Position numbers and translations under genes: made by a program
DNA from: Candidatus Micrarchaeota archaeon
GTDB taxonomy: Archaea > Micrarchaeota > Micrarchaeia > Anstonellales > Bilamarchaeaceae
Direction of reading: 5' to 3'
NCBI GenBank assembly: GCA_018304385.1
Contig: JAGVWJ010000005.1
Span: 2,814 to 66,813, forward strand
Length of the DNA: 64,000 nt
Notes under the pieces: generated by a model
What the model was told of the DNA's origin: nothing
Databases searched by the model: none
The model's input: the letters and a program-made list of their open reading frames with translations, nothing else
In this document: positions 40,187 to 61,074 of the stretch, in pieces
How the letters are laid out: each line of letters opens with the position of its first letter
Position numbering within the stretch: position 1 is the stretch's first letter

Positions 40187-41479
40187 ATGGCTAAAATAGA
40201 CTGGTATGATGAATTTGTTGATTTTCATTATAAACCTGCAAAGGATGATTTAGTTTGTCTCTACTATTTTGAACCTGGAGAAGGCATAAGCGCAAAGGAG
40301 GCAATAGGCAGAATTGCAAGTGAAAGCTCTTCTGGAACTTGGACAACACTATATAAGCTGCCAGCGCGTGTTGCAAAGATTAAGGCGCGTGCGTTTGTAG
40401 TAAAAGGTAATTATGTGAAAGTAGCTTATCCAATAGACTTATGGGAAGAAGGAAACGCGCCACAATTACTAAGTGGAATTGCAGGAAACATATTCGGTAT
40501 GAAAGCGCTTAAGAATTTACGATTAATGGATGTAACGCTACCGCATGCTTATCTTAAACATTTCAAAGGGCCAAGCTTAGGTATTCACGGAATAAGGAAA
40601 AAAATGCGTGTTGCAAAACGTCCGCTAACTGGCGCAGTTCCAAAACCAAAAATAGGCTTCAGCGCGCAAGAGCATGCAGACATTGCATTTGAAACATGGA
40701 TGGGTGGATTTGATATTGTAAAGGATGATGAAAATTTGACTACAACAAATTTCAATAGATTCGAAGATCGAGTAAAGCTGATGACAAGATTGCGCGATAA
40801 GGCTGAAAAAGAAACAGGTGAGTGCAAAGATGCATTTCTCAATATAACTGGCGAAACAAACGAGATGATCCGAAGAGCGAAGCTGCTGTATGACAGTGGA
40901 TGGAGATTCGCAATGATAGACGTAGTAACTGCTGGCACTGCTGCAGTGCAAACTTTACGCGATGTGTGCGCCGAGCTCGGCCTAGCAATACATGCGCATC
41001 GCGCAATGCATGCTGCATTTGATAGGAATCCAAAACATGGAATGACAATGTATTTCTTAGCAAAATTAATGCGATTAATTGGAGCTGATGAGATTCATGT
41101 TGGAACTGCTGTAGGAAAATTAGTTGGCACGGCCCAAGAAGTAAAATCAATAGCTGATATGCTAAGAGAAAATCGCATAAAAGAAGGAAAATTAAATCTT
41201 GCGCAGGATTGGGGCAATCATAAACCAATGCTTCCTGTTTCTTCAGGTGGATTGCATCCTGGCCTAGTGCCAGCTGTAATGAAAATATTTGGAAATGATC
41301 TTACGCTTTTAGTTAGTGGAGGCATTCATGGTCATCCTAAAGGCACGCGCGCTGGTGCTAAAGCAGCAATGCAGGCAATAGAAGCAACAATGAATGGCGT
41401 AAGCCTAGACGAATATGCGAAAAAGCATGTTGAACTTGCGCAAGCATTGGAGAAATGGGGATACTACAAACCGAAGTAA
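40187..41479 (+). CDS. rbcL: RuBisCO large subunit, form III-like
   Basis: GIAGNIFGMKAL, PKPKIG, GGFDIVKDDENL (carbamylated-Lys motif), HAHRAMHAA, SSGGLHPG. 430 aa. No small-subunit gene nearby. Confidence 0.9.
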   Translation: MAKIDWYDEFVDFHYKPAKDDLVCLYYFEPGEGISAKEAIGRIASESSSGTWTTLYKLPARVAKIKARAFVVKGNYVKVAYPIDLWEEGNAPQLLSGIAGNIFGMKALKNLRLMDVTLPHAYLKHFKGPSLGIHGIRKKMRVAKRPLTGAVPKPKIGFSAQEHADIAFETWMGGFDIVKDDENLTTTNFNRFEDRVKLMTRLRDKAEKETGECKDAFLNITGETNEMIRRAKLLYDSGWRFAMIDVVTAGTAAVQTLRDVCAELGLAIHAHRAMHAAFDRNPKHGMTMYFLAKLMRLIGADEIHVGTAVGKLVGTAQEVKSIADMLRENRIKEGKLNLAQDWGNHKPMLPVSSGGLHPGLVPAVMKIFGNDLTLLVSGGIHGHPKGTRAGAKAAMQAIEATMNGVSLDEYAKKHVELAQALEKWGYYKPK

Positions 41480-46174: not shown

Positions 46175-46504
46175 TTAGCTCAACTCTACTATAAGTCTCT
46201 TTTCCTTTGCTTGTGTAATTATAACTGGTTTCGAAGAACTTGAAATACCAAGTGCCTTTGCAACACTAGATTTAAGAGCAATTGCAAGATTTCCACCTAT
46301 TTTGTAAATGGTAGCTTTTTCTGAACCGAATAAACCAAGTTCTTTCATTTTACTTTCTATCCTAGCAGCTTCTTTTGAATTAAATATCTGTTCGTCACAA
46401 GCATTACAAATCTCTGCTTTAAAATGTCCAACAAATATCCCATGACGGACAACGTCTACAATTTTTTTTGTTATCTTTCCTTTCTCACATATAGGGCATA
46501 CCAT
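46175..46504 (-). CDS. zinc-finger + AbrB/SpoVT-like antitoxin
   Basis: MVCPICEKG...CNACDE zinc ribbon, followed by IYKIGGNLAIALKSSVAKALGI (a swapped-hairpin-like segment). Located downstream of the toxin gene. Confidence 0.55.
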   Translation of the reverse strand: MVCPICEKGKITKKIVDVVRHGIFVGHFKAEICNACDEQIFNSKEAARIESKMKELGLFGSEKATIYKIGGNLAIALKSSVAKALGISSSSKPVIITQAKEKRLIVELS

Positions 46505-46512
46505 AAAACCAC

Positions 46513-46719
46513 CTACGTGCGATAGCACGTTATTATTAGCCAGTATCCTTTTTCCTTTTGCGCAACAACTTCAAGGCCGCGATAATAAAACTTATATTTT
46601 TTTTCTGAAATGCGTGTCGTTTGGCTAGACTTTATAATTGTCTCTTCTACCTCATTTGTTGTTATTTTTTCATCTGGCATGGATTCCAGAATAGCGTGCT
46701 TAGTGTACTTCAAGCGCAT
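46513..46719 (-). CDS. DUF4258-like toxin
   Basis: 68 aa. MRLKYTKHAILESMPDEKITTNEVEETI... resembles DUF4258-type toxins. The toxin-first gene order matches HigBA/MqsRA. Confidence 0.5.
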   Translation of the reverse strand: MRLKYTKHAILESMPDEKITTNEVEETIIKSSQTTRISEKKYKFYYRGLEVVAQKEKGYWLIITCYRT

Positions 46720-48227: not shown

Positions 48228-49154
48228 TTAGACGGTTTGTAATTTTTCAATCATTCCACAGAATACGCAAATTTCATTAGCAGAAGGCTCCTTGCATTGC
48301 TTGCAGTATTTCATTTCTAGTTTTTCGCCATCTTCTGCTAGACCTTTTCTAAGTGCTTTCTCCATTGCAAAAAAGCTGTTAACTATTTTGAACTTTGTGC
48401 CTGTATACTTTTCTTCTGTTTCATTTAGCTGTTCACGCACATGAGCACGAAATGCATGTCTTGCGTATGGGCACTCTTGAAAATCTATTTCTATGCCACT
48501 TGTCAAAGCATACACAGCAACTTCTTTTTCTGGAGTTCGCATTAACGGACGAATCCGTGGAACGAATTTTTCATCCTCTACAAGCGGTTCGTTAAGGCGA
48601 GCAAGACGTTGTGGTTCATTGCGCATTATATTCATTAAAACTGTTTGTGCAATATCATCAAGATTATGCCCCAATGCTAGTTTATCTGCGTTTAGCTCGC
48701 GAGCTGCATTATTTAATAGACGGCGACGCATAACACCACAGTAACTGCATGGTATCTCTTCCTCACCTTTTTTCTTCATTATTTCATCTAAGCTTAGACC
48801 AACTTCTTTTTTATAAGAAAAAGTATGATGTTCTATGCCTAGCTTCTTGCATTCTGCTTTTGCAAATTCAAGTGTTTTATTCCTATATCCTTCAATGCCT
48901 TCATCAATTGTTATTGCAATTATCTCAAATGGTAATGTCTCTCGCAACCGTGCTAATGAATATAAAAGAACACAACTATCCTTTCCACCGCTTAGCCCAA
49001 CAGCAATACGCTCATTCCTTTTAATCATTGCAAACTCGCGAATAGTTGCCCTGATGCGCTTATCAAACATTTCCTTGAAATGTTTTTCGCATAAATGTGT
49101 TTTTGAATATGGTAAGTAGATGATTGCTGGAGATTTACAAGAAGAACAGAACAT
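48228..49154 (-). CDS. ttuA: tRNA 2-thiolation protein, TtuA/NcsA (Ncs6/Ctu1) family
   Basis: PP-loop GLSGGKDS. N- and C-terminal CxxC zinc fingers (CSSC...C, CKQC...CVFC). Fe-S Cys in CSYCG. LALGHNLDD. Confidence 0.8.
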   Translation of the reverse strand: MFCSSCKSPAIIYLPYSKTHLCEKHFKEMFDKRIRATIREFAMIKRNERIAVGLSGGKDSCVLLYSLARLRETLPFEIIAITIDEGIEGYRNKTLEFAKAECKKLGIEHHTFSYKKEVGLSLDEIMKKKGEEEIPCSYCGVMRRRLLNNAARELNADKLALGHNLDDIAQTVLMNIMRNEPQRLARLNEPLVEDEKFVPRIRPLMRTPEKEVAVYALTSGIEIDFQECPYARHAFRAHVREQLNETEEKYTGTKFKIVNSFFAMEKALRKGLAEDGEKLEMKYCKQCKEPSANEICVFCGMIEKLQTV

Positions 49155-49171
49155 AGATATTACCTAAATAA

Positions 49172-49555
49172 TTAATGAATTCGTTCGATTCCTGGGATTA
49201 GATCAAAATCTGAGTCGAATGAAATTATTTTCTCAATATTGAATTTTTTCATTATGATAATATTGCTAGCGTCACCGAAACTAAGCCCATCGTATTTTTC
49301 TACAAAATACATAATCTGTTCTATCCCCTCCTTTATTTCTACAACAGCAATATCTGATTCAATAATTTTTTCCCAAGTTTCCATGGATTTTTTACCGCCA
49401 TCCCTGCTCTTTATTACTGTAATGATTTCAGATAGAATAATAGTTGTTATAACACCTCGTTCTTCAGAACCTTGAACAAGTTCTACTGCTTTAGAATGCT
49501 CTTCTTCCCTATCTCGAAAAAAAGCAATAAGAACATCTGCATCTAAAAGAATCAC
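49172..49555 (-). CDS. vapC: PIN-domain toxin (VapC)
   Basis: MILLDADVLIAF (Asp4/6), E in SEIITV and a C-terminal FDSDFD: the classic PIN acidic quartet. Confidence 0.8.
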   Translation of the reverse strand: MILLDADVLIAFFRDREEEHSKAVELVQGSEERGVITTIILSEIITVIKSRDGGKKSMETWEKIIESDIAVVEIKEGIEQIMYFVEKYDGLSFGDASNIIIMKKFNIEKIISFDSDFDLIPGIERIH

Positions 49556-49837
49556 TTAAACACCATATACGATTTTATCTATGTCTTTAGAAGAACCTTT
49601 AGGCCCGCCTTTTATGAACCCCGCATATTTTAATAAACCAAAACCCTTCCTCGCTTTTTTTCCTTCGAGATATCCATATTTTTCCTCTGCCACGTGCTCA
49701 AGCGCCATTTCGATTACTTGCGCCTCAGTCACTCGTTCGCCCTTCTCAAGTTGCTCATGAGCCTGAACATATTTGAGGATTACGTCCGCTTGCTTGGGAA
49801 TCTTCTTGGTTATATATTCGCTTGCCATAAATACCAC
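49556..49837 (-). CDS. VapB-like antitoxin
   Basis: 93-aa ORF directly abutting vapC with no gap. Confidence 0.55.
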   Translation of the reverse strand: MVFMASEYITKKIPKQADVILKYVQAHEQLEKGERVTEAQVIEMALEHVAEEKYGYLEGKKARKGFGLLKYAGFIKGGPKGSSKDIDKIVYGV

Positions 49838-49883: not shown

Positions 49884-50072
49884 CTATCCACCAAAAACAA
49901 CTTTAATAACTTCTACTGTGTCGCTTCCATCAACCTTAGTTGTTTCGGGCGCTAGCTTACCATTCACCTTTATTACTACTTCCTCGCGGCGCATGCCTAA
50001 TTGCTTTATAAGCTGTTCTGCAGTGCCTTTAAACTCTAGCTGTTTCTTTTCATTATTTAGAATAAGTTGCAT
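49884..50072 (-). CDS. ThiS/MoaD-fold ubiquitin-like protein with C-terminal Gly-Gly (SAMP/TtuB-like)
   Basis: 62 aa ending ...VEVIKVVFGG*. Pattern VNGK...V.DGD.VE is typical of ThiS/MoaD. Confidence 0.75.
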   Translation of the reverse strand: MQLILNNEKKQLEFKGTAEQLIKQLGMRREEVVIKVNGKLAPETTKVDGSDTVEVIKVVFGG

Positions 50073-50102: not shown

Positions 50103-51036
50103 TTAAGGATTTACTATTGGCCAGATCTGCTTTCCTTTGTGATATACGCTCCCAGCACGTATTGCTGCTTCAAATAATGGCCCCGACATATTCCCATTAA
50201 TGTGTATTTCACCGCCATACATGCTACATGCAACTGTTATTCCAACGTCGCCCATAACCAAAATACTGCCTCCATGCATCTCTGCACCTAGAGTATGGCC
50301 ACAGTTTCCTTGAACGATTATTTTACCGCCTCTCATCTTCAACCCAACATAATTTGAAGCATTGCCTTTTATTTTGATAGAGCCTCCATTTAGCATAATC
50401 CCTGCAAACGGTGCAGCATTACCATAAACAATAATCTTACCTTTCATGCAATTTCCGAGCCGTTCACCTGCATTTCCCTTCACTATGACTGTACCACCAT
50501 CCATTAGCGCGGCGCAATCATATCCTGCGTCACCTTCGACAATGATGGTTTTTCTATTATAAATTCCTAAAAGGCCTAGGTCGTCTAGATGACGAGTAAA
50601 TATTGTGTAAGTAGAATCCGACCCATTATTTATCAATGCACTCAGGAACAAACCAGCTCTTTTAGCAAAATCTTTTTCATTCTGAAATTCTCTTATTTAT
50701 CAATGCACTCAGGAACAAACCAGCTCTTTTAGCAAAATCTTTTTCATTCTGAAATTCTCCAAGAGCAAGGTTGAAATTCTCGATATCCGCTTTAGTGTAT
50801 GCGAAACTTCGAATAAGTTCTAATGCTTTCTGGTAACTTTTTCTTGGGTCGACAACAGCCATATCGTCTTTAACAAGCTCGAAGTTTTGCCATGCCTGCT
50901 TTAGAGCTCTTAATGTTTCGTTTTCTTTTATCTCTGCTTTTCTAACTGCGTGTGTAGGCTCGCGTTTATATCTTCGAAATTGATCACTCGCTCGAGCATC
51001 CGAAACTTTTGCGATTCTCCTTTCAACTAGCATCAT
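50103..51036 (-). pseudogene. GXGXG-repeat paralog split by a 67-bp tandem duplication
   Basis: Track ORFs 50677-51036 (N-module, ends ...AGLFLSALINKRISE*) and 50103-50651 (starts MFLSALINNGSDS...) are two halves of one gene. 934 nt minus 67 nt gives 867 nt, which is 289 codons. Confidence 0.85.
50626..50759. repeat. perfect 2 x 67-bp tandem duplication
   Basis: 50626-50692 equals 50693-50759 base for base (ttatttatcaatgcactcaggaacaaaccagctcttttagcaaaatctttttcattctgaaattctc). The flanking bases differ. Confidence 0.95.
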
Positions 51037-51910
51037 TATTCACCGGATAAATTAGTTTACCTTTATGAAATACCTTACCTCCCATCTTATTAACACCAAG
51101 CGAATGGTAATCTCCATTCAAATGAATTTCTCCGCCTTCCATTGCTAAACCAGTATCGTGACCACAATTACCTTCAATTACAATAAGCCCTCCTTTCATA
51201 CATCTTCCGAACTCTTGGTAAGGAGCATTTCCATATACATGTATCCTTCCGCCCGTCATAGAACCTCCGATATACGGCCCAGCATCACCTTTTATTATAA
51301 GCTCGCCACCATGCATATTACTTCCGCTGCCATAATCGCCATATCCTTCAACAATAATTATTCCGCCTTGCATTTCAAGCGCAGCAAATGCAGACGCGTC
51401 CCCTCTTACAATAATAGTTCCTCTTTCCATTTTATGTCCTATGCGCGTTACGTCATTTCCATAGATTATTATGTTTTTAACATTACGAAAACCCAGATCA
51501 TATATTGTTGCATCGTTAGGTGGTTTTATTAAATACCTGGTATCTACAGTATAATTTTCTTCGCTTCCAGTATTGATTAACGCACTTAGTAATAGCCCTG
51601 TTTTTTGAGCAAACCATTTTTCATCTTGAAATTCTATCAATGCGATAACGAATTTTTCTACATCTTTTGCAGAAACGCTTAGGTTTCCTATAAGTCCTAA
51701 AACCCGAACGTATGCCGCATCTTCATTATCTTGCCCATACGCGAATTTATTCCAGATATTTCTTAGTTCTTTGAGAACTACGTCTTCTTTTACATCTGGT
51801 GCTCGAACTTCGTGCGGAGTTTCGCGTTTATATTTACCAAAAATATCGCCTGCGTGTGCAATAGCTGAAACATTTGACACACCCCTTTGTCTTTTTGTAA
51901 TTTTAATCAT
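51023..51910 (-). CDS. N-module + GXGXG beta-helix repeat protein (paralog 3)
   Basis: 295 aa. N-motif GDIFGKYKRETPHEVR, then repeats IIVRGDASAFAALEMQGGIIIVEGYGDYGSGSNMHGGELIIKGDAGPYIGGSMTGGRIHVYGN, and tail FHKGKLIYP. Confidence 0.7.
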   Translation of the reverse strand: MIKITKRQRGVSNVSAIAHAGDIFGKYKRETPHEVRAPDVKEDVVLKELRNIWNKFAYGQDNEDAAYVRVLGLIGNLSVSAKDVEKFVIALIEFQDEKWFAQKTGLLLSALINTGSEENYTVDTRYLIKPPNDATIYDLGFRNVKNIIIYGNDVTRIGHKMERGTIIVRGDASAFAALEMQGGIIIVEGYGDYGSGSNMHGGELIIKGDAGPYIGGSMTGGRIHVYGNAPYQEFGRCMKGGLIVIEGNCGHDTGLAMEGGEIHLNGDYHSLGVNKMGGKVFHKGKLIYPVNNDAS

Positions 51911-51937
51911 TTTAAATCACTCTTTTTCGGTACGGTC

Positions 51938-52741
51938 TCAGCCTATCATAAAAACGTCTAAAGGGGAAGCATTCCAATCAGCAAAGATTTTCTGCCTAGT
52001 TCCTCCTAGATAATCACGAACCAAAGGTCCAATATAAAGGTTAACTCTTTTTAGATTTCTAGTTGTGTTATCTACTTGTTGGTCCTCCATCTTATCTCCT
52101 ATTGGAATTCTAAATCTTTCATCGTATTTGTACCAACCAGCTTCTCTAGGAAAGTTTTCAACTAAGCTAAGATTACTCTCATTGGTTACTCTAAGTTCAT
52201 AGTTATTGCCCCCCAGGGCAACTAGCTCAAAATTCGGATACTCCACTACCAATGCACAATTTATTTTACTTTGGAATTGTTTTGGAACATGAAACTTAAT
52301 ACAATATTCTACATCTTCTTCATCTAACAACCTATATTTGATCCGCTTCCCAAATTTTTTATCAGGTGCTTCGTATATAATAAATGTCCCTGTTATTACT
52401 GGGTAATCTGGTGGTATTCCACTCTCTCCATAATTCGTTTCAGTTAAAATTCTATCATGAATATCATTAGGAACTATTAGCTTGTTTTCTCTTTGTGCTA
52501 AAGCTATAGCTTTAAAGAAATTTAAACTTCCACAATATTCCAATAGTGCGATTACTGCTTCGGGCTTCATACCTCTCAGCATTTCTCTCGTTCTTTGTAT
52601 TCTTTCAGCTAAAGATTGATCTGTAACATCTGCCGATCTAACTGCTTGTGGTTTTTCTTTTTTGTATCTTCTAAATAGATCACTCGCCCGCGTAACAGCA
52701 GAAACAGATCGAACTCTTTCTATTTTCGTAGTTGTAATCAT
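51938..52741 (-). CDS. N-module protein with unrelated C-terminal domain (paralog 2)
   Basis: 267 aa. N-motif SDLFRRYKKEKPQAVR. No GXGXG repeats. The C-terminal ~170 aa are unrecognised. Confidence 0.6.
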   Translation of the reverse strand: MITTTKIERVRSVSAVTRASDLFRRYKKEKPQAVRSADVTDQSLAERIQRTREMLRGMKPEAVIALLEYCGSLNFFKAIALAQRENKLIVPNDIHDRILTETNYGESGIPPDYPVITGTFIIYEAPDKKFGKRIKYRLLDEEDVEYCIKFHVPKQFQSKINCALVVEYPNFELVALGGNNYELRVTNESNLSLVENFPREAGWYKYDERFRIPIGDKMEDQQVDNTTRNLKRVNLYIGPLVRDYLGGTRQKIFADWNASPLDVFMIG

Positions 52742-53448
52742 TTAACATCACTTTTTTCTGGCCATAGTTGTTTGCCTTTGTGATAAATTTTAATATCAGA
52801 TTTAGGGTTACGATGTAGGAAAAGTTTTGAAAAACGGGGTTTGTCTCCATTAACATGTAATGTTCCTCCTCGCATGCTCATGGCAACCCAACTACCAGCA
52901 CTGCCTTCCACTATTACCGTTCCACCGTCCATATTCCATCCCAAATATGCACCGCAATCTCCTTTTACTAATATCCTGCCTTGAGTCATGTGGTCGCCAA
53001 TCCTTATTCCAGCATCACCGTTTATAGTTACGTTCTTGATATTCCCGTACACAGGCGTATTTATCCTTACTGAAAGATGATGCGTATGTATTGTAATTTC
53101 TCTATCTTCACAATTATTGATTAATTGGCTGAGAAAATACCCTGCCTTCCATTCAAAACCCTTTTCATGTTGAAATAATATAAGACTAAGGCTGAACTTC
53201 TCAATATCTTTTGCAGTATATGAAATACCTCTCAATAAGTATCGTGCCTTTGCACGCGCTTTCCCTTCTTGTAAACCTGGTCTAAATTTTTTCCATGCAT
53301 CTGTTATTTGTTTTAGTGTTTGGTCTTCTTCGACTTTAACTTGTCTGACAGGTTGGCGCTCTTCTTTTTTATATCTCCTGAAATAGTCAGCAGCAGCTAA
53401 TCGTTCATGTCCTTTTGGTGTTCCTCTTCGTTGTCGCATTTTTATCAC
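52738..53448 (-). CDS. N-module + short GXGXG beta-helix repeat protein (paralog 1)
   Basis: 236 aa. N-motif ADYFRRYKKEERQPVR, repeats VTINGDAGIRIGDHMTQGRILVKGDCGAYLGWNMDGGTVIVEGSAGSWVAMSMRGGTLHVNGD, tail YHKGKQLWP. Confidence 0.7.
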   Translation of the reverse strand: MIKMRQRRGTPKGHERLAAADYFRRYKKEERQPVRQVKVEEDQTLKQITDAWKKFRPGLQEGKARAKARYLLRGISYTAKDIEKFSLSLILFQHEKGFEWKAGYFLSQLINNCEDREITIHTHHLSVRINTPVYGNIKNVTINGDAGIRIGDHMTQGRILVKGDCGAYLGWNMDGGTVIVEGSAGSWVAMSMRGGTLHVNGDKPRFSKLFLHRNPKSDIKIYHKGKQLWPEKSDVK

Positions 53449-54799: not shown

Positions 54800-55190
54800 A
54801 CTAGGTCTGATGAAAGTTTTTATAAGCCTAATAAATACCATCGGCTCAATATTAGTGCTGCTTGGGTTTTTTATCTTTCTAAATGCTGAAGAAACGACAT
54901 TATTAATTATTGGGTTATTTTTAATTATCATCACAGAGGCAGCAAGCATAAATATGCTTAATTATGAGGAGAAGAGAAAACTAGAAAACACAAAAGATGA
55001 GTTTCTAAAGAACATAGGCATGATATTTGCATGGCCCGTATTATTATTCATCTTATACATGATGTCGCCAAACAAAGCAGTACTATCTTTTACATTCATA
55101 ATGACTATAACAGCAGCTATAAAAGCCATTTCGTTAATAATAAAAGTATATCTGATTGATAAAAGAATAGTAATTGGAAGGCAGGAATAA
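54789..55190 (+). CDS. small membrane protein
   Basis: 133-aa ORF with four hydrophobic helices. Overlaps the eno stop by 11 nt. Confidence 0.45.
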   Translation: MTIKLGLMKVFISLINTIGSILVLLGFFIFLNAEETTLLIIGLFLIIITEAASINMLNYEEKRKLENTKDEFLKNIGMIFAWPVLLFILYMMSPNKAVLSFTFIMTITAAIKAISLIIKVYLIDKRIVIGRQE

Positions 55191-55191
55191 A

Positions 55192-58100
55192 ATGGTTGAC
55201 TCTAAAAAATCAAGTTCAGTAGATGCAAAAACTTACTATCAGCTAGGCAATGATTTCTACGAGAAAGCAGATTATGAGAAGGCTATTGAAAATTATAATA
55301 TGGCAATACTGCTAAACCCAATATTTTCAGAGGCATATTTTAATCGGGCTTTATGCTACTACCAACTAAAGAACTTTGATAAATCTATAGTTGATTACTC
55401 AAAGGCTGCAGAACTAGATCCTCCAAACTCAATTATATATAATAACCGAGGCGACGCCTATTATAGAAAGCAGGATTTTAAAGAAGCAGTAAAGGATTAT
55501 GATAAGGCCATTCAACTTAACCCTAATTATCTAAAGGCATTTTATAACCGCGGGTTATCTTATGCTAGCCTAGAAGAATATGAAAAAGCAATAGAGGATT
55601 TTAGCAAAGTAATCCAACTTAAAGAAGATTTTGCAGAGGCATATCACTTACGCGGATTATGCTTTGAATATGCAAATAATCTAAGTACTGCGATAGAGGA
55701 TTATGAAAAGGCACTAAAGCTTAATCCAGATTTAACAGAGGCAAAGCAGCATTTAGAGGGGGCAAAAGCAAAGCAAGCGCAGGAAGGAACAAAAGAGGGA
55801 GAAGGCAAGGCAGGCAGTGATATAAAAATGCTCCAAAAACCCAATATGAGTTTTGAAGATGTAGCTGGCATGATTAAAATGAAAGAAGAAATCAGAGATA
55901 CCATAGTTTATCCAATGATTAATCCAGAGCTTGCAAAACATTATGGGAAGCTAGGTGGGGGCGGCATATTGATGTATGGGCCGCCGGGATGCGGTAAGTG
56001 TGTTTCTGGTGATACCCCGGTACTTTTAAGCAATGGCGACCTTAAGCCTATCAGTGCCTTATACGAAGAAGCAAAATGCAATAGTAATGAGAAACGAATT
56101 AATGAAAATGAAACAATTGTTGAAAATCCTGATTTGGAAGTACTTTCATTTAATAGAAAAACGGCAAAAATGGAAAGGAAAAGGATTAACTTTGTTTATA
56201 AACAGAGATATAAAGGAAAATTATATGAGATTGTCACGCATTCCGGAAGAAGAATCGAGGTAACACCGGAGCATCCGTTTATTTCGATCAATAATGGCAT
56301 AGAAAAAATAAAGGCTGACCTTTTAAGAAAAGGCACTTATATCGCAATACCACGCGAAATTTCTACTATTCCAAATCAATTAGATAAAAAAATCCAAAAA
56401 CTCGAACAATTCAATAATATTTCAACTCCAACCGGAGATATGTTAAGATATATATCATATAGACATCCGCATACCAGAGCAATTCATCCAATATATGAAG
56501 TAAACCAAGAGCTTGCCAATTTTTTTGGAATGGTTTTATCAGAAGGATCGGCGATTCATGGTACTTTGTTTTTCTCTAATTCAGATCATGAGCTTATTGA
56601 TTGCGTGGCAAACACCTCTAAAAATATGTTTGGAATAACACCGCGAATAAATCCTGATACTTCAGAGGGTGTTTATAAAGTTGAGATAGGTTCTGTTGGA
56701 TTAATAAAATTCTTGGAGCTCGCTCATGGATTTAAAATGCAGGGATCAAGAAACACAAAAATTCCAAAATCTATAATGGAATCAGATGAAGAAATAGCTG
56801 GCGCTTTCCTAAGAGCAGTATTTGAATGTGAAAGTAATATACGAACAGATGTTCCTGAGATAGAATTTACAACTGCAAGTAAAGAATTTGCTAATGGAAT
56901 TTCTTATTTACTTTTAAGATTTGGAATAGTGGCTAGAATAAAACCAAAGATAATAAAAGGAAACGATCATATTTATTGGAGACTTTATATAAGTAGTCAT
57001 ACTAATCTTACATGCTTTGAAAGAGAGATAGGACTAATTAGTGAAAGAAAAAGAAAGGCATTAGAAAAATGGACAAAAAGAAACATAACCGGCTCTACTA
57101 ACGTAGATGTAATTCCGAACATAAGCGCATTATTAAAACGAGCCAGGGAATCACTTGGGCTCAGTAAAGAAAGATTCTATCAATCTAAAAATGGTTATAG
57201 GTATGAACTTTCAAAAAATATAAGTAGAGACTACCTTAAAAGAATAATGACTGGCAAGGAAAAAACAGAGGAAGTAAAAAAATTGAGTATTATCGTTGAG
57301 AGCGATGTCTTATGGGATGAGGTAATTGAAGTCAATGTTCAAGAGGTAAATTGCAACGTATATGATTTAACAGTAGAAGACAACCACACATTTATAGCTG
57401 GATTTGGCGGGATGGTAGTCCATAATACTTACATAGTGAAGGCTGCTGCTGGCGAATGTAAGGCTGGTTTCATAAACGCAAAATTAAGCGATTTATTAGA
57501 TATGTACGTAGGTAACACAGAGAAAAATATACATAAGGTTTTTGAACTAGCTAGAAAAAATTCACCGTGCATATTATTCTTTGATGAAGTAGATGCTATT
57601 GGCGGAAGACGTGACCAAGGAGAGGGTGCGCAGTACATGAAAATGGCGGTAAACCAAATGCTTTACGAGATGGATGGTATAGAAGCGCATAACGAAAATG
57701 TATTAGTTATCGCTGCTACTAACGCACCATGGGATGTTGATCCTGCATTAAGAAGAAGCGGTAGATTTAGCAAGGCTATATATATCTCAGAACCAGACAC
57801 TACATCAAGAGAGGCAATAATAAAATTACATGCTAAAAAGAGGCCAATGGCAAAAGGAATTCCGTTTAAGTTACTAGCCTGGGCAACATATGGGTATGCA
57901 TCTTCAGATTTAAAGGCACTGGTTATGGAATCTACGGATATCCCATGGAAAGAGGCATACCTATCAATACAAGCAAAATCCCAACAATATATAAAACAAG
58001 GAATAGCCCAGGAAGAGGCAGATCAAAGAGCAAAAACAGAGATACAGCCAAGGCCTGTTACAACCAGAGATTTCCTAAATGCGTTAGGTAAAAGAGATTC

Positions 58101-58341
58101 AAGCTTGCCTCCTTGGTACGGCCAAGCAAAGAAACAAATAGGTAAACAAGAAGAGATAACAATGATAGATGGAAAAGAGCACAAAAAAGTCGGTGAACCA
58201 AAGATGGGTCCAGAAGAAAGACAGCAGTTTAAGGCATTGCTAGGACAGATAGAAAAACGAAACAAATCTTGGTATAAACTGTATATAAAAATGATAAGAG
58301 TATTTGCAATTGGATTATTACATTTAAAATCTATATTTTGA
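55192..58341 (+). CDS. TPR-repeat AAA+ ATPase, intein-containing
   Basis: About 5 TPR units (AYFNRALCYYQLKNFDKSIVDYSKAAELDP...). AAA+ core split at the Walker A: YGPPGCGK|C...HN|TYIVKAAA. Walker B ILFFDEVD. Arg-finger region PALRRSGRF. ATG at 55192; the track start at 55174 is TTG. Confidence 0.85.
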   Translation: MVDSKKSSSVDAKTYYQLGNDFYEKADYEKAIENYNMAILLNPIFSEAYFNRALCYYQLKNFDKSIVDYSKAAELDPPNSIIYNNRGDAYYRKQDFKEAVKDYDKAIQLNPNYLKAFYNRGLSYASLEEYEKAIEDFSKVIQLKEDFAEAYHLRGLCFEYANNLSTAIEDYEKALKLNPDLTEAKQHLEGAKAKQAQEGTKEGEGKAGSDIKMLQKPNMSFEDVAGMIKMKEEIRDTIVYPMINPELAKHYGKLGGGGILMYGPPGCGKCVSGDTPVLLSNGDLKPISALYEEAKCNSNEKRINENETIVENPDLEVLSFNRKTAKMERKRINFVYKQRYKGKLYEIVTHSGRRIEVTPEHPFISINNGIEKIKADLLRKGTYIAIPREISTIPNQLDKKIQKLEQFNNISTPTGDMLRYISYRHPHTRAIHPIYEVNQELANFFGMVLSEGSAIHGTLFFSNSDHELIDCVANTSKNMFGITPRINPDTSEGVYKVEIGSVGLIKFLELAHGFKMQGSRNTKIPKSIMESDEEIAGAFLRAVFECESNIRTDVPEIEFTTASKEFANGISYLLLRFGIVARIKPKIIKGNDHIYWRLYISSHTNLTCFEREIGLISERKRKALEKWTKRNITGSTNVDVIPNISALLKRARESLGLSKERFYQSKNGYRYELSKNISRDYLKRIMTGKEKTEEVKKLSIIVESDVLWDEVIEVNVQEVNCNVYDLTVEDNHTFIAGFGGMVVHNTYIVKAAAGECKAGFINAKLSDLLDMYVGNTEKNIHKVFELARKNSPCILFFDEVDAIGGRRDQGEGAQYMKMAVNQMLYEMDGIEAHNENVLVIAATNAPWDVDPALRRSGRFSKAIYISEPDTTSREAIIKLHAKKRPMAKGIPFKLLAWATYGYASSDLKALVMESTDIPWKEAYLSIQAKSQQYIKQGIAQEEADQRAKTEIQPRPVTTRDFLNALGKRDSSLPPWYGQAKKQIGKQEEITMIDGKEHKKVGEPKMGPEERQQFKALLGQIEKRNKSWYKLYIKMIRVFAIGLLHLKSIF
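55999..57426 (+). mobile_element. intein (476 aa) with LAGLIDADG homing-endonuclease domain, inserted in the P-loop
   Basis: Cys1 block A CVSGDTPVLL, block B VTPEHPF, LAGLIDADG-like motifs FFGMVLSEGS and AGAFLRAVFECES, block F VYDLTVEDNHTFIAG, terminal VVHN followed by Thr+1. Excision restores GPPGCGKT. Confidence 0.9.
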
Positions 58342-58346
58342 TATAA

Positions 58347-59876
58347 TTAACCGAACATCCCACCATCTGATATCTTTCCTGTTTTTTTACCATACATGTT
58401 CTGCATTCTTGCTAAATCATCATATAATTCTGGATAAAGCTCCCTTAACTCCGCTCCCATAATCATTCTACCAAGAGAGGTAAACCACTCTGTTAAATCA
58501 GATCGCTCTTTCCTTATTGCCTCGTCTATCAAATTATTTGTCACTGGTGCTTCCTTACCTGATTTTAAAGATTGCGTATATGCAGCCTCTGCTGCAGCCT
58601 CACAAACTGCTTGAACGTCTGCGCAGGAGAAATGCCAAGTCTGCTTTGAAAACTTTTTATGATTTAGATTTTTTTCAACTGGAATATCCTTTAGATACAT
58701 CTTAAAGAGCGCTTCGCGCGATGCGCCATCTGGGGGGCTTACATAAATCAATTTTCCAAACCTACCGCTTCGTTTAAGTGCATCATCTATAAACCAAGGC
58801 GCATTTGTCGCACCTAAAACAAGAACGTTTTCATTTTTCTTATCAATCTGATCAATCTCAATAAGTAATTGCGCAATCATGGATCTCTCCCATGAATGCT
58901 CTGCCTCAGCCCTACGCCATCCTAGCCCATCTAATTCATCTAAAAATAATATACATGGCGCGTTTTTCCTTGCAGTTTCAAATGCTGCATGTATATTCTT
59001 CTCGCTATTACCAATCCATTTATCAAGAATATCGCTTACTTTTATATTTATTATATTTAGTTTTGTCTCTCCAGCTAAAGCCATAGTAATCGAGGTTTTT
59101 CCACAACCTGGAGGACCATATAATATTATTCCGCCGCCAATTTTTTTCTTATATTTCTTAGCCAATTCTGGATTCTTCAGTGGCTCGATAATAGAGAATT
59201 TCAAACGCTCTTTTAACTCGTCCATGCCAGCAACGCTTGCGAAATTAGTTTCTGGAATCTCTGGCTTGAATGATTCTGAGGTTTGAGCTCCTCTATTAAC
59301 TGCTTGCGCACCCCCTAAATTATCTAACGCCTTTTTTGCTTCTCTTAGAAGAGGGTCGAGTTCGAGCGCTTTTTTATAGTCTGCCTTTGCCTCTTCTATT
59401 TGGCCCATTTGTTGATATACTAAACCCCGTAGGTCATACGCCTTTGCATACTTAGGATTAAATTCTAATGCATTATTAAGATCATTTAATGCGCAATCAG
59501 CATTTAATTTATAATAATAGTGCAATACTGCCCTACCGTAATAAGCACGCCAAAATTTAGGATAGAGAACTATAGAAGCATTATAATGTGCAAATGCATT
59601 TCCATATTCTTTTTTTTCATAGTAAACCAGACCCAAATCACAATGTACAGTTGCATGTTTTGGATTTATTTCGAGCGTTCTTATATAATCTAATAGGGCT
59701 AGATCAAACTCTGATTTATAATAATGCGAAACCCCCCTACGATAATGTGAATCTGCATTCTTTGGATCAAGCTTAATTGCCTCACTGAAATATCTTATCG
59801 CATTATCGTAATCGCTGCTCTTATAATAGCGCTCGGCCTCAGATAAAACCTCTTTTATATTATTTTTATTTGGCAT
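58347..59876 (-). CDS. TPR-repeat AAA+ ATPase, intein-free paralog
   Basis: TPR units, then YGPPGCGKTSITMALAGE, Walker B ILFLDELD, and ALKRSGRF. Convergent with its paralog; the stop codons are 5 nt apart. Confidence 0.85.
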   Translation of the reverse strand: MPNKNNIKEVLSEAERYYKSSDYDNAIRYFSEAIKLDPKNADSHYRRGVSHYYKSEFDLALLDYIRTLEINPKHATVHCDLGLVYYEKKEYGNAFAHYNASIVLYPKFWRAYYGRAVLHYYYKLNADCALNDLNNALEFNPKYAKAYDLRGLVYQQMGQIEEAKADYKKALELDPLLREAKKALDNLGGAQAVNRGAQTSESFKPEIPETNFASVAGMDELKERLKFSIIEPLKNPELAKKYKKKIGGGIILYGPPGCGKTSITMALAGETKLNIINIKVSDILDKWIGNSEKNIHAAFETARKNAPCILFLDELDGLGWRRAEAEHSWERSMIAQLLIEIDQIDKKNENVLVLGATNAPWFIDDALKRSGRFGKLIYVSPPDGASREALFKMYLKDIPVEKNLNHKKFSKQTWHFSCADVQAVCEAAAEAAYTQSLKSGKEAPVTNNLIDEAIRKERSDLTEWFTSLGRMIMGAELRELYPELYDDLARMQNMYGKKTGKISDGGMFG

Positions 59877-59922: not shown

Positions 59923-61074
59923 ATGCAAATAAATGGAAGGATGTTTTTAAAAAACCAGATAGTTGAAAAGGGCATTGTAATTGAAGATGGGATAATTAAA
60001 AAAATTGCAAATATTGCGCAGAGCGAGCAAGAGAAACAGGATCAAGTAATTAATGCGATTAACATGTTAATTCTGCCCGGCTTAGTTGACGTGCACGTCC
60101 ATATGCGCGAACCTGGTGATACCTATAAAGAGGATTTTCTTACTGGAAGTAAGGCAGCAATTGCTGGAGGCATAACAACAGTTATAGATATGCCAAATAA
60201 CAAGGTACCAACAGTAACTGCAGCACGCTTAGAAGAAAAGAAAAAGCTTGTAAAAAAAGCAATCTGTGATATTTTTTTTCATATGGGTACTACTTAGCAT
60301 AACTTTAATTAAATAAAAAAGGCAGATCCGATTTCATTAAAAATATACGCAAGCGAGACAACTGGAAATATGAAAATAAATGATGAGAATATAATTAAGA
60401 AACATTTTGAAAACTTTGATAAAAATAAACCAATAGTTATTCATGCAGAAGGACAACAATTAATAGAGAAAATCGCTGCACTTGCAAAGAAAACAAAAAG
60501 AAAAATACATCTTGCGCATGCAACAACTGCAAAAGAAATAGAAACTATTAAGGCAATTGGCGCAAGTGTGGAAGTAACACCACATCATTTATTCTTATCA
60601 AAAAAGCATGAGGAAAAACTAGGTAAGCTTGCTCCAGTAAAACCACCTTTGCGTGATGAAACTAGCAGAAAATCGCTTTGGCAAAATTTAGATAAAATAG
60701 ATTGCATAGCAACAGATCATGCACCGCATAGCCTAGAAGATAAAGAAAATGGTGCATATGGCTATCCTGGACTGGAAACTAGCTTAGCATTAATGCTAGA
60801 TGCTTACAACAAAAGACTGCTTACGCTAAGCTGGATTGTAGAAAGAATGGCAACAAACCCTGCAAGAGTATTTGGACTAAATTGTGGCGAGATCGCAACA
60901 GGTAAGAAAGCAGACTTGATTATTGTTGATGTTAAGGGAGAGTGGCGCGTTAACGGTGAAGAACTAGAAACAAAATGCAAATGGTCGCCATTTGATGGCC
61001 AAATGCTTAAGGGAAGGGTAAAAACTGTAATTAGAAATGGAAAGGTAGTTTACGAGAACGAGGAATTTTATTAA
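59923..61074 (+). pseudogene. pyrC: dihydroorotase interrupted by two in-frame stop codons
   Basis: N-part LPGLVDVHVHMREPG...TTVIDMPN and C-part ...IVIHAEG...ATDHAPH are in the same frame. TAG at 60295 and TAA at 60310 interrupt it (FHMGTT*HNFN*IKKADPISLKIY). Confidence 0.75.

What the first reader, a model, noticed from the sequence alone, without database searches (positions are those of the whole stretch)
50103..53448. Tandem paralog operon: unrecognised basic N-module fused to GXGXG beta-helix repeats, followed by a GG-terminated ubiquitin-like gene
Four consecutive minus-strand genes share an N-terminal motif: a basic leader, then a.D.F(R/G)(R/K)YK(K/R)E....VR....(V/I)..(D/N)..L. The genes are 52738-53448, 51938-52741, 51023-51910 and the split gene 50103-51036. 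Three of them (all but 51938-52741) extend this into the same ~110-aa N-terminal module with 'EKF.L.L..FQ.EK.F..K.G..LS.LIN'. Those same three continue into several turns of the G-xx-G-xxx-G repeat (e.g. IIVEGDAGYDCAALMDGGTVIVKGNAGERLGNCMKGKIIVYGNAAPFAG...). They end with a shared hKGK.(I/L)(W/Y)P tail. The second gene keeps only the leading motif, on an unrelated ~170-aa C-terminal domain. The genes overlap (ATGA at 52738-52741; 14 nt at 51023-51036), so they form one operon. A 62-aa ThiS/MoaD-fold gene ending in GG lies 30 nt downstream. GXGXG domains are best known as the non-catalytic C-terminal domain of glutamate synthase large subunit and of FwdC/FmdC, and no such catalytic partner is nearby. 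A fusion to a novel module, amplified in what looks like a streamlined genome and sitting next to a ubiquitin-like modifier or sulfur carrier, has no obvious explanation.
Basis: partly seen in the sequence, partly recalled or inferred. Interest (0 to 1): 0.8.

Follow-up and report, generated by a model that had tools for sequence, protein, structure and literature searches.

The report
Leader-tagged beta-helix gene array, Micrarchaeota
Four neighbouring genes in a tiny symbiotic archaeon belong to a large, undescribed, lineage-specific gene family (dozens of copies per genome) that share a short N-terminal tag. In related genomes these genes always sit in one operon with a dedicated AAA+ ATPase and a VWA co-chaperone. 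The ubiquitin-like gene next door belongs to tRNA thiolation, not to this array.

Summary
Four co-directional, overlapping minus-strand genes (50103-53448) share an N-terminal leader. Three continue into a roughly 110-aa helical module and a FwdC-like GXGXG beta-helix. One carries an unrelated domain.

Two points need correcting:
- The "split" fourth gene is caused by a perfect 67-nt tandem duplication (50626-50759). An independent assembly of the same organism lacks it and has an intact 288-aa gene.
- The GG-terminated Ubl pairs with the NcsA/TtuA tRNA 2-thiolation gene. The two are directly adjacent in the orthologous locus of a related MAG. In the window a VapBC pair is inserted between them. 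No other array locus has a Ubl.

What it is: a small satellite array of a Micrarchaeota-restricted two-family system.
- 251 clusters carry the leader, and they fall into only two families.
- Tandem arrays reach 14 genes, and one MAG holds at least 43 copies.
- In 13 of 13 informative loci, a clade-specific MoxR-like AAA+ ATPase and a roughly 600-aa HExxH + VWA(MIDAS) protein lie in the same operon as such arrays.

Most likely mechanism (inferred): the disordered leader is the handle captured by the VWA protein, for AAA+-driven remodelling or assembly.

No Glt or Fwd catalytic partner is present, and I found no literature on this system. I rate it a new variant of a known kind.

The parts
52738..53448 (-). 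G1: a GX-family gene of 236 aa. It has the leader, the helical N-module, a short GXGXG beta-helix and the HKGKQLWP tail. The ORF finder starts it at GTG 53448. The L008 gene call uses the ATG at 53439.
   Evidence: (PF01493, 37.9 bits)
53323..53400 (-). Leader of G1 (residues 17-42, LAAADYFRRYKKEERQPVRQVKVEED)
   Evidence: leader HMM E 6e-13
51938..52741 (-). G2: a G2-family gene of 267 aa. It has the same leader and first helix, then an unrelated alpha+beta domain with no family or fold match. Its start overlaps the G1 stop (ATGA).
52619..52693 (-). Leader of G2 (residues 17-41, TRASDLFRRYKKEKPQAVRSADVTD)
   Evidence: E 2.6e-12
51023..51910 (-). G3: a GX-family gene of 295 aa. Layout: leader (about residues 18-43), four helices (44-114), right-handed beta-helix (119-288). 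The AF2 model has pLDDT 88 and pTM 0.81.
51782..51859 (-). Leader of G3 (residues 18-43, AHAGDIFGKYKRETPHEVRAPDVKED). This segment has low confidence in the AF2 model.
50103..51036 (-). G4: a GX-family gene that is frameshifted in this window. It reads as one 288-aa protein once one 67-nt copy is removed. Its start overlaps the end of G3 by 14 nt.
50920..50997 (-). Leader of G4 (residues 14-39, ARASDQFRRYKREPTHAVRKAEIKEN)
   Evidence: E 4.4e-12
50626..50759 (.). Perfect tandem duplication of 2 x 67 nt inside G4. It covers the conserved EFQ.EK.F..K.G..LSALIN motif and causes the apparent split. It is absent from the independent assembly L008.
49884..50072 (-). ThiS/SAMP2-like Ubl of 62 aa with a C-terminal GG. 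It is not part of the array. It is the sulfur-carrier partner of NcsA.
49172..49837 (-). VapB-like gene (49556-49837) plus PIN/VapC (49172-49555). This toxin-antitoxin pair is inserted between the Ubl and NcsA, and is absent from the orthologous locus L043.
48228..49154 (-). NcsA/TtuA-type tRNA 2-thiolation PP-loop ATPase (308 aa), the functional partner of the Ubl
   Evidence: (NcsA model E 6.7e-73)

Best explanation
**What the array is.** The four genes are a satellite array of a multigene system restricted to Micrarchaeota (DPANN archaea). Two protein families carry the same N-terminal tag, which is disordered and about 25 residues long. In this clade it reads a-D-x-F-(R/G)-(R/K)-Y-K-x-E-x4-V-R. 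The aromatic residue and the Glu are conserved across clades.
- The GX family adds a four-helix module and a FwdC-derived GXGXG beta-helix with a variable number of 19-residue coils.
- The G2 family adds an unrelated alpha+beta domain.

**The primary locus in related genomes.** There, such arrays lie in one operon with a clade-specific MoxR-like AAA+ ATPase. The operon also holds a roughly 600-aa protein with an N-terminal HExxH motif and a C-terminal VWA domain with an intact MIDAS site.

**Proposed mechanism (inferred).**
1. The VWA/MIDAS domain captures the extended leader through its invariant Glu.
2. The AAA+ ring remodels the bound protein.
3. The HExxH domain possibly removes the leader.
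4. The beta-helix paralogs are thereby released or assembled into a hetero-oligomeric structure.

**Shown versus inferred.**
- Shown: family membership, the shared leader, the fold, the gene expansion and the operon linkage to AAA+/VWA in relatives.
- Inferred: leader-VWA recognition, leader processing and the nature of the final assembly.

**The Ubl.** It belongs to the Ubl-NcsA tRNA thiolation pair and is adjacent only by local synteny.
For: **The leader marks exactly two families.**
- A leader-only profile finds 251 clusters among 1.84 billion representatives. The leader always lies at about residues 12-55.
- The C-terminal parts of the 150 hits listed, pooled with the earlier homologs, fall into only two families: 137 GX and 70 G2.
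- The homology between the two families is limited to the leader and the first helix.

**Fold.**
- The G3 model has pLDDT 88, a low-confidence leader, four helices and a beta-helix.
- Its best structural matches are FwdC chains: 5t61_C at E 3e-5, 39% identity over 152 columns, rmsd 2.0.
- A PDB profile search gives FmdC/FwdC at 1e-35 to 5e-23.

**Restriction and expansion.**
- All 34 genome loci come from Micrarchaeota MAGs.
- Co-directional arrays of up to 12 genes (L011) and 14 genes (L054) occur, often mixing GX and G2 genes.

**Linkage to AAA+/VWA, tested from the AAA+ side.**
- Leader-family genes are adjacent to or interleaved with AAA+ and VWA in L044, L046, L047, L049, L051, L054, L055, L056, L057 and the P0253 contig.
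- The same holds in MAG loci L009, L017 and L037.
- Examples: L046 reads AAA-GX3-VWA-GX5, and L056 reads AAA-GX5-VWA-GX4.

**Nature of the partners.**
- The AAA+ matches Pfam AAA_5 and AAA_lid_2 above their cut-offs.
- It forms a distinct Micrarchaeota clade, with scores dropping from 348 to 116 bits outside it.
- The VWA protein has invariant HEIGH, DSSGS, GGGT and FTDG motifs.

**Co-variation.** Leader sequence changes with the AAA+/VWA clade but is uniform among paralogs of one genome. Leader identity is 49-55%, against 34-42% for the rest of the protein.

**General mechanism.** VWA MIDAS sites bind extended peptides, and MoxR ATPases remodel the bound client. This is taken from PMC7159879.

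**Paralog age.** The window paralogs are old (32-38% identical), yet each has a 64-65% ortholog in MAG nzgw32.
Against: - No AAA+ or VWA gene lies within the 64-kb window. Linkage for this particular array is by family membership only.
- Part of the AAA+/VWA adjacency could be inherited synteny. GluRS and a membrane protein also recur beside arrays.
- The VWA domain is below Pfam's gathering score (20.1 versus 27 bits).
- The HExxH region matches no peptidase model. The best is SprT-like at E 0.22, in one member out of seven.
- The biological role of the final product is unknown.
Confidence: 0.55

Rival explanations
1. The system is a diversifying conflict (defence or host-interaction) system centred on MoxR-VWA. 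The large, fast-evolving arrays of beta-helix proteins would act as variable sensors, decoys or effectors rather than as building blocks of a housekeeping structure.
For: - MoxR-vWA pairs form the core of several diversifying conflict systems (PMC7159879).
- The family is hugely expanded and dispersed, with at least 43 copies in one MAG.
- Coil number varies across the family.
- Array orthologs are 64-65% identical, while the flanking NcsA and Ubl are 86-92% identical.
- Array content changes between close relatives: L043 has an extra paralog.
- One cassette lies next to an integrase and a Prim-Pol/D5 element.
Against: - There are no PADLOC or PHROGs matches.
- No recognisable toxin or effector domain is present apart from the HExxH motif.
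- No third VMAP or iSTAND component was seen.
- The N-module pattern finds no match in viral contigs.
- Individual paralogs are retained as orthologs across species.
Confidence: 0.2
2. The GX and G2 proteins act on their own as scaffold or filament proteins, or as adaptors. In this reading their adjacency to AAA+/VWA is inherited synteny without a functional link, and the leader binds some other common partner such as nucleic acid, membrane or a housekeeping chaperone.
For: - Most arrays, including the window's, are far from AAA+/VWA.
- GluRS and a membrane protein recur next to arrays just as AAA+/VWA do in several loci.
- The leader in this clade is strongly basic, with pI about 10.
- The weak structural neighbours of G2 are OB-fold nucleic-acid binders.
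Against: - Arrays sit at different positions relative to the two genes: between AAA+ and VWA (L017, L046, L049, L056, L057), after VWA, or overlapping the AAA+ stop (L009). Static synteny does not explain this.
- Linkage holds in 13 of 13 informative AAA+ loci, down to 41-47% AAA+ identity.
- The basic charge of the leader is not conserved in other clades.
- The OB-fold matches are not significant (E at least 0.013, TM at most 0.2).
Confidence: 0.15
3. This is the first reader's reading: the beta-helix array works with the adjacent GG-terminated Ubl, either as targets or scaffolds of ubiquitin-like conjugation or as part of a sulfur relay.
For: - The Ubl lies 30 nt downstream on the same strand.
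- This adjacency is kept in the orthologous locus L043.
Against: - In L043 the Ubl is followed after 19 nt by NcsA/TtuA, its known type of partner. The window has the same pair, split by a VapBC insertion.
- No other array among 57 loci (611 kb) has a Ubl.
- No E1-like gene is present nearby.
Confidence: 0.03
4. The genes are ordinary stand-alone GXGXG subunits of a split glutamate synthase or of formylmethanofuran dehydrogenase (GltB domain 3, or FwdC/FmdC).
For: - Pfam GXGXG is above threshold.
- The best PDB matches are FwdC/FmdC.
- Some database names say "glutamate synthase domain-containing protein 3" or "formylmethanofuran dehydrogenase subunit C".
Against: - NCBIfam FwdC models score far below their cut-offs: 70-104 against 130.65, and 60-94 against 340.
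- The N-terminal third is replaced by a family-specific leader and helical module.
- No Glu_synthase, GATase or FwdA/B/D partner appears in the window neighbourhood or in any related locus.
- Up to 14 tandem copies occur.
Confidence: 0.02

Closest known systems
FwdC/FmdC (formylmethanofuran dehydrogenase subunit C) and the C-terminal GXGXG domain of the glutamate synthase large subunit (Pfam PF01493)
   Same: Both have a right-handed beta-helix built from G-xx-G-xxx-G coils. G3 is 39% identical to FwdC (5t61_C) over 152 aligned columns with rmsd 2.0, and profile E-values reach 1e-35.
   Different: - The N-terminal part is replaced by a leader and a four-helix module.
- Coil number is variable.
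- There are no catalytic partner subunits.
- The genes form tandem multigene arrays.
- They are linked to AAA+/VWA genes instead of Fwd or Glt genes.
- Scores are below the FwdC equivalog cut-offs.
MoxR-type AAA+ / VWA co-chaperone systems with dedicated clients. Examples are RavA-ViaA, CbbQ-CbbO, NorQ-NorD, CoxD-CoxE, and p618/p892 in tail development of Acidianus two-tailed virus (as summarised in PMC7159879).
   Same: - An AAA_5/AAA_lid_2 ATPase is encoded next to a VWA protein with an intact MIDAS motif and next to the presumed clients.
- The clients carry an extended, disordered peptide of the kind MIDAS sites bind.
   Different: - The clients are two new families, present in dozens of paralogs per genome, and most are encoded away from the chaperone pair.
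- The VWA protein carries an N-terminal HExxH motif.
- The ATPase clade is specific to Micrarchaeota.
- Neither partner is in this window.
MoxR-vWA-centred ternary conflict systems (VMAP, iSTAND, FtsH and beta-propeller types; Kaur et al. 2020, PMC7159879)
   Same: Both have a MoxR-vWA core with variable, rapidly diversifying associated proteins that share an N-terminal adaptor-like region.
   Different: - No VMAP, iSTAND, FtsH or propeller third component was seen.
- No recognisable effector domains are present.
- The host is a DPANN archaeon rather than a multicellular bacterium.
- The shared region is a short peptide plus one helix, not a folded effector-associated domain.
SAMP2/Urm1-type Ubl with an Ncs6/NcsA/TtuA tRNA 2-thiouridine synthetase
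   Same: This describes the neighbouring genes 49884-50072 and 48228-49154: a ThiS-fold protein ending in GG next to a PP-loop ATPase with a TtuA LIM-type zinc finger.
   Different: It is not part of the beta-helix array. In this window a VapBC insertion separates the pair.

Membership tests
Pfam GXGXG (PF01493) beta-helix domain | Score at or above the gathering cut-off (32.5 bits) | tested here: met
   G1 scores 37.9 bits, G3 41.0 and the C-terminal half of G4 45.4. The fold is confirmed by the AF2 model and Foldseek.
FwdC/FmdC (NCBIfam TIGR03122 / NF042910 equivalogs) | Whole-protein score at or above the curated cut-off (130.65 / 340 bits) | tested here: not met
   Scores are 69.9-103.5 bits and 60.2-93.9 bits. 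The match covers only the beta-helix.
FwdC/FmdC or GltB domain 3 | Encoded with catalytic partners (FwdA/B/D, or GATase_2 plus the Glu_synthase FMN domain) | tested here: not met
   None lies within about 10 kb in the window; the amidohydrolase at 59923-61074 is a dihydroorotase. None appears in the related loci with Pfam-annotated genes.
Leader-tagged GX / G2 system of Micrarchaeota (defined here) | N-terminal leader motif at residues about 12-55, followed by either the helical N-module with GXGXG helix or the G2 domain | tested here: met
   The leader HMM gives E 6e-13 to 4e-12 for all four genes. The GX N-module HMM gives 6e-42 to 2e-38 for G1, G3 and G4. The G2 HMM gives 7e-101 for G2.
Leader-tagged GX / G2 system of Micrarchaeota (defined here) | Genomic linkage to the clade-specific MoxR-like AAA+ and the HExxH-VWA protein | tested here: not met
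   Neither gene is in the 64-kb window (tblastn). The linkage is seen in 13 of 13 informative AAA+ loci elsewhere, including the close relative MAG nzgw32 (L009). Whether this organism has the pair cannot be told from the window.
MoxR-type AAA+ with VWA partner (the related-locus proteins) | An AAA_5 or AAA_3 ATPase with the MoxR/chelatase lid, and a partner with a VWA fold and a MIDAS motif (DxSxS...T...D) | tested here: inconclusive
   AAA_5 (32.1 bits against 22) and AAA_lid_2 (24.5 against 22.7) are above their cut-offs. VWA_2 is hit in 7 of 7 members but below its cut-off (best E 1.6e-4). DSSGS, GGGT and FTDG are invariant. There is no PDB sequence match.
ThiS/MoaD/SAMP-type Ubl | ThiS-family match and a C-terminal Gly-Gly | tested here: met
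   Pfam ThiS scores 37.2 bits (cut-off 22.5) and SAMP2 scores 27.0 (cut-off 27). The sequence ends ...VVFGG. The NCBIfam ThiS and SAMP2 equivalogs are below their cut-offs.
NcsA/TtuA tRNA 2-thiolation enzyme | PP-loop ATPase domain plus an N-terminal TtuA LIM zinc finger, with an adjacent Ubl sulfur carrier | tested here: met
   ATP_bind_3 (67.2 bits) and TtuA_LIM_N (38.5 bits) are above their cut-offs. The NcsA equivalog gives E 6.7e-73 but is below its cut-off (245.6 against 500). The Ubl is directly adjacent in L043.
Known anti-phage defence systems (PADLOC) and phage protein families (PHROGs) | A match to any model | tested here: not met
   PADLOC gives no hits. PHROGs gives only two insignificant hits (E 0.017 and 0.071).
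VMAP / iSTAND MoxR-vWA ternary conflict systems | A third conserved VMAP or inactive-STAND component, plus effector domains fused to vWA | not tested
   No dedicated models were available. Gene maps of 13 cassettes show only AAA+, HExxH-VWA, GX/G2 genes and, in four loci, a small protein of about 140 aa upstream.

The most novel reading that the evidence does not exclude
Micrarchaeota would possess an undescribed protein-handling machine. It would consist of a lineage-specific MoxR-like AAA+ ATPase and an HExxH-VWA protein that recognise, and perhaps cleave, a dedicated N-terminal leader code. The machine would service dozens of fast-evolving paralogs of a repurposed FwdC beta-helix and a second novel domain. 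By my estimate these paralogs make up several per cent of the genes of a roughly 1-Mb symbiont genome. The system would build a variable hetero-oligomeric structure used in the interaction with the host archaeon or with viruses.
Probability: 0.3. Interest if true: 0.8.

Novelty: new variant of a known kind. Interest (0 to 1): 0.62.

Why it matters
DPANN archaea have very small genomes, so spending dozens of genes on one family points to an important, lineage-defining function.

Three things follow from this analysis:
- A structural subunit of a C1 / nitrogen-metabolism enzyme (FwdC or the GltS beta-helix) has been repurposed.
- The analysis defines a short leader motif shared by exactly two families.
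- It ties both families to a dedicated AAA+/VWA pair.

This turns a set of "hypothetical proteins" into a testable client-chaperone system. It gives a handle on what Micrarchaeota build inside or on their cells. It also corrects database names that would wrongly imply glutamate synthase or methanogenesis-type enzymes in these organisms.

Tried and rejected
- **Family libraries.** Pfam, NCBIfam, PHROGs and PADLOC scans of the N-module and of G2 gave no consistent family.
- **N-module structure.** The PDB profile search gave only a weak Roquin ROQ-domain hit (E 0.017). I treated it as noise because Foldseek gave no support.
- **G2 structure.** Foldseek of the G2 model against the PDB gave only insignificant OB-fold hits (E at least 0.013, TM at most 0.2). 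Against viral structures it gave nothing.
- **Shared adaptor domain.** A profile-profile comparison of the N-module with the VWA protein found no shared domain.
- **Viral contigs.** A scan with the N-module pattern found nothing.
- **Too-diverse alignment.** I repeated it with 8 sequences.
- **AAA+ and VWA proteins.** PDB and NCBIfam searches gave no match.
- **Promoter and terminator scan.** It is uninformative for an archaeon.
- **Literature.** Searches for Micrarchaeota with GXGXG, with formylmethanofuran dehydrogenase and with MoxR, and for DPANN tandem beta-helix paralogs, found nothing relevant.
- **Signals considered and rejected.** A Tat or Sec signal does not fit, because there is no hydrophobic segment (maximum Kyte-Doolittle 19-residue mean at most 1.5). 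A PCNA-binding PIP box does not fit either; I judged this by eye from the leader consensus and ran no tool for it.
- **FwdA partner.** The nearby amidohydrolase is a dihydroorotase, not FwdA.

Full report
**1. The observation**

The minus strand between 50103 and 53448 carries four consecutive ORFs:
- G1, 52738-53448, 236 aa
- G2, 51938-52741, 267 aa
- G3, 51023-51910, 295 aa
- G4, read as two pieces, 50677-51036 and 50103-50651

G1 and G2 overlap by ATGA. G2 and G3 are 27 nt apart. G3 and G4 overlap by 14 nt. A 62-aa ORF ending in GG starts 30 nt after G4.

Pfam GXGXG (PF01493) is above its gathering score for G1, G3 and the C-terminal half of G4. G2 matches nothing. An alignment of the four proteins shows the shared leader, the shared helical module of G1, G3 and G4, and the HKGK..(W/Y)P tail.

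The leader is not a chance resemblance:
- A 27-column HMM built from both families hits only these four ORFs among all six-frame ORFs of the window (E 6e-13 to 4e-12; the next-best window ORF has E 2.3).
- A profile-profile comparison of the GX N-module with the G2 family aligns 49 columns at 96.6% probability and E 5e-10.

**2. The split gene**

G4 is interrupted by a perfect two-copy tandem duplication of 67 nt at 50626-50759. The duplication covers the most conserved N-module motif. Because 67 is not a multiple of three, it shifts the frame. Deleting one copy gives a continuous 288-aa protein.

An independent metagenome assembly of the same organism (L008; its G3 is 100% identical) carries the same four-gene array next to enolase, with G4 intact at 288 aa. 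A DNA alignment shows that it differs only by lacking one 67-nt copy. The split is therefore an assembly artefact or a strain-level lesion. It is not a feature of the family.

**3. The Ubl**

The 62-aa gene matches Pfam ThiS, matches SAMP2 at the borderline, and ends in GG. Downstream lie a VapB-like gene, a PIN/VapC gene, and then an NcsA/TtuA-type PP-loop tRNA 2-thiolation enzyme.

In the orthologous locus of MAG nzgw32 (L043) the order is:
- G2-type gene (partial)
- G3 ortholog (65% identical)
- an extra GX paralog
- G4 ortholog (64%)
- Ubl (92%)
- NcsA (86%)

There, only 19 nt separate the Ubl from NcsA, and there is no VapBC. So the Ubl and NcsA form the functional pair, and the window has a toxin-antitoxin insertion between them.

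Among 57 loci (611 kb) gathered around family members, a Ubl lies next to an array only in the window, in L008 and in L043. The array-Ubl adjacency is local synteny.

**4. What the proteins are**

G3 has only 26 homologous clusters in the word-indexed search. All that carry a source name come from Micrarchaeota or "ainarchaeum" MAGs, and they are named hypothetical or misnamed as GltB domain 3 or FwdC.

The AF2 model of G3 is confident (pLDDT 88, pTM 0.81):
- residues 1-40 have low confidence
- four helices span residues 44-114
- a right-handed beta-helix spans residues 119-288

Foldseek finds FwdC chains (5t61_C, E 3e-5, 39% identity over 152 columns, rmsd 2.0) and nothing significant for the N-module. 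A family profile hits FmdC/FwdC at 1e-35 to 5e-23 and glutamate synthase at about 1e-11. The NCBIfam FwdC equivalogs are far below their cut-offs. The N-module matches no Pfam family in any of 25 members.

The coil period is 19 residues, and coil number varies widely across the family. There are no hydrophobic segments. The leader is basic in this clade, with pI about 10.

G2 has 52 homologous clusters. The few that carry a source name are Micrarchaeota, none has a Pfam domain, and one contig often holds several copies. Its model (pLDDT 75) shows helices followed by an all-beta region. It has no significant neighbour in the PDB or among viral structures. The best hits are weak OB-fold matches.

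**5. The leader defines exactly two families**

I searched a 32-column leader-only profile against 1.84 billion representative proteins. It found 251 clusters at E of 1e-3 or better, with the leader always near the N-terminus. I clustered the parts downstream of the leader for the 150 listed hits together with the earlier homologs. This gave two families only, 137 GX and 70 G2, plus one probable frameshift product and some short fragments.

**6. Expansion and arrays**

A scan of one genome per GTDB species with N-module patterns returned 34 loci, all from Micrarchaeota MAGs:
- at least 11 loci in nzgw32
- 8 in MFD01689.bin.1.58
- 6 in Sv348
- 4 in Ca. ainarchaeum STA_81
- 2 in an Anstonellaceae MAG

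I annotated the loci with local HMMs. Co-directional, overlapping tandem arrays turn out to be the rule: 12 genes in L011, 7 in L034, 6 plus 2 in L009, and 5-6 in several others. G2-type genes are often at an end of a GX array or inside it. Summed over its loci, nzgw32 has at least 43 family genes.

The window paralogs are old (32-38% identical), yet each has an ortholog at 64-65%. The window's four-gene array is a small instance of this pattern.

**7. The conserved partners**

Neighbour clustering showed two recurrent genes next to arrays. One is a MoxR-like AAA+ ATPase (Pfam AAA_5 and AAA_lid_2, both above cut-off). The other is a roughly 600-aa VWA protein. GluRS and a membrane protein also recur.

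To remove ascertainment bias I searched from the AAA+ side. A metagenome scan and a homolog search gave about 53 closely related clusters. Those with a taxonomic source name are Micrarchaeota or ainarchaeum. Scores drop sharply, from 348 to 116 bits, to generic MoxR proteins.

Every contig with enough flank has family genes in the same operon:

| Locus | Gene order |
|---|---|
| L046 | AAA-GX3-VWA-GX5 |
| L056 | AAA-GX5-VWA-GX4 |
| L054 | AAA, then 13 GX-like genes of about 200-300 aa, then VWA |
| L055 | GluRS-AAA-VWA-GX6 |
| L057 | AAA-GX-VWA-GX-GluRS |
| L044 | AAA-VWA-GX |
| L049 | G2..AAA..G2-VWA-G2-GX |
| L047, L051 | AAA-GX |
| P0253 contig | AAA, six family-sized genes (the first is the GX member P0024; four hit GXGXG), then a 582-aa VWA-sized protein |
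| L009, L017, L037 (MAG loci) | family genes adjacent to AAA+ |

That is 13 of 13 informative loci. Arrays take different positions relative to the two genes, which argues against mere static synteny.

The VWA protein has an invariant N-terminal HEIGH (HExxH) motif and invariant MIDAS elements DSSGS, GGGT and FTDG. Pfam VWA_2 is hit in 7 of 7 members, but below threshold.

Leader sequence is clade-specific:

| Clade | Leader form |
|---|---|
| window | D.F(R/G)(R/K)YK.E....VR |
| L055 | RF.GFKPE |
| L056 | DLFDGLDPEE |
| L054 | DYL.GL.EQ |

The leader is uniform among the paralogs of one genome. It is also better conserved than the rest of the protein (49-55% against 34-42% identity). This is as expected if a common, co-evolving partner reads it.

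None of these partner genes lies in the 64-kb window.

**8. Mechanism**

It is established that VWA MIDAS sites bind extended, unstructured peptides. It is also established that MoxR ATPases remodel the bound client to drive complex assembly. An archaeal precedent is the MoxR-vWA pair of the archaeal phage-tail assembly system (PMC7159879).

My inference is as follows:
1. The disordered leader, with its conserved aromatic residue and Glu, is the handle captured by the VWA domain.
2. The AAA+ ring remodels the client.
3. The HExxH region may remove the leader.
4. The beta-helix paralogs, which are co-translated from overlapping genes, are assembled into a hetero-oligomer.

The nature and role of that product are unknown. 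The main alternative is a diversifying conflict or host-interaction role. The expansion, the faster divergence than flanking housekeeping genes and the gain and loss of array genes all fit that alternative.

**9. Context and exclusions**

Around the array the window encodes:
- enolase
- two TPR-AAA ATPases, one with an intein
- a dihydroorotase split into two ORFs
- type III RuBisCO
- a class I aminoacyl-tRNA synthetase
- a metallo-beta-lactamase-fold protein

There is no glutamate synthase or Fwd partner. There are no PADLOC or PHROGs matches and no match in viral contigs. The window has no tRNA genes and no Rfam hits. Literature searches found no description of this system.

**10. Verdict**

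The array belongs to an undescribed, Micrarchaeota-specific, massively expanded two-family system. In relatives the system is tied to a dedicated MoxR-like AAA+ / HExxH-VWA pair. I rate it a new variant of a known kind (a MoxR-VWA client system with a repurposed GXGXG beta-helix), with interest about 0.6.

Noticed in passing
window 49172-49837: A VapB-like / PIN (VapC) toxin-antitoxin pair sits between the Ubl and its NcsA partner. The orthologous locus L043 has the Ubl and NcsA only 19 nt apart with no such pair, so this is a recent insertion into a functional gene pair.
   Followed up: yes
window 55174-58341 and 58347-59876: Two convergently oriented TPR + AAA (CDC48/PAN-like) ATPase genes lie here. 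The first (1055 aa) carries an intein with a LAGLIDADG homing endonuclease inside the AAA domain. The second (509 aa) has no intein.
   Followed up: partly
window 59923-60297 and 60370-61074: Dihydroorotase (pyrC) is split into two ORFs that cover model positions about 1-127 and 184-411. About 56 central residues are missing, and the 72-nt gap is too short to hold them. This is a pseudogene or a second assembly defect in this window.
   Followed up: partly
window 40187-41479: A type III RuBisCO large subunit (NCBIfam rubisco_III, 572.6 bits, above its cut-off) lies here. From my own knowledge, this fits the nucleotide-salvage pathway known from DPANN archaea.
   Followed up: no
window 1-64000: The whole 64 kb has no tRNA gene and no Rfam family above threshold.
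   Followed up: yes
window 52219-52260 (G2 residues about 161-174): The window's G2 reads NCALVVEYPNFEL where the family consensus is NCALVxEHPDFEL. It therefore lacks the nearly invariant His and Asp of the most conserved G2 motif. If that motif is an active or binding site, this copy may be inactive.
   Followed up: no
L037 3753-5552, L046 9494-11215, L055 11386-13194, L056 5569-7278, L057 4382-6142: The VWA partner protein has an invariant HEIGH (HExxH) motif near residue 70. This suggests a zincin-like peptidase domain fused to the VWA domain. No peptidase HMM confirms it (SprT-like E 0.22 in one member).
   Followed up: partly
L037 1849-2289, L044 7489-7917, L048 7442-7906, L057 1743-2162: A small conserved protein of about 140 aa, with no family match, lies immediately upstream of the AAA+ gene in four loci. 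It may be a further component of the cassette.
   Followed up: no
contig holding P0253 (JGI 3300072015, 63,873 nt; no DNA retrievable): An AAA+/GX/VWA cassette lies directly downstream of an integrase and a Prim-Pol/D5-type primase-helicase, which looks like an integrated element. The cassette may be mobile in some lineages.
   Followed up: no
protein P0079 (529 aa): This is a single ORF with two complete GX units, each with leader, N-module and beta-helix. It is either a natural fusion or read-through of two tandem paralogs.
   Followed up: no
window 46175-46528: A small ORF has a weak MqsA-antitoxin-like match (E 2.4e-4, below cut-off). It may belong to another toxin-antitoxin module in this small genome.
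   Followed up: no
L009 8544-9530: A Fic/DOC-family protein is encoded between a six-gene array and the AAA+ gene in MAG nzgw32.
   Followed up: no
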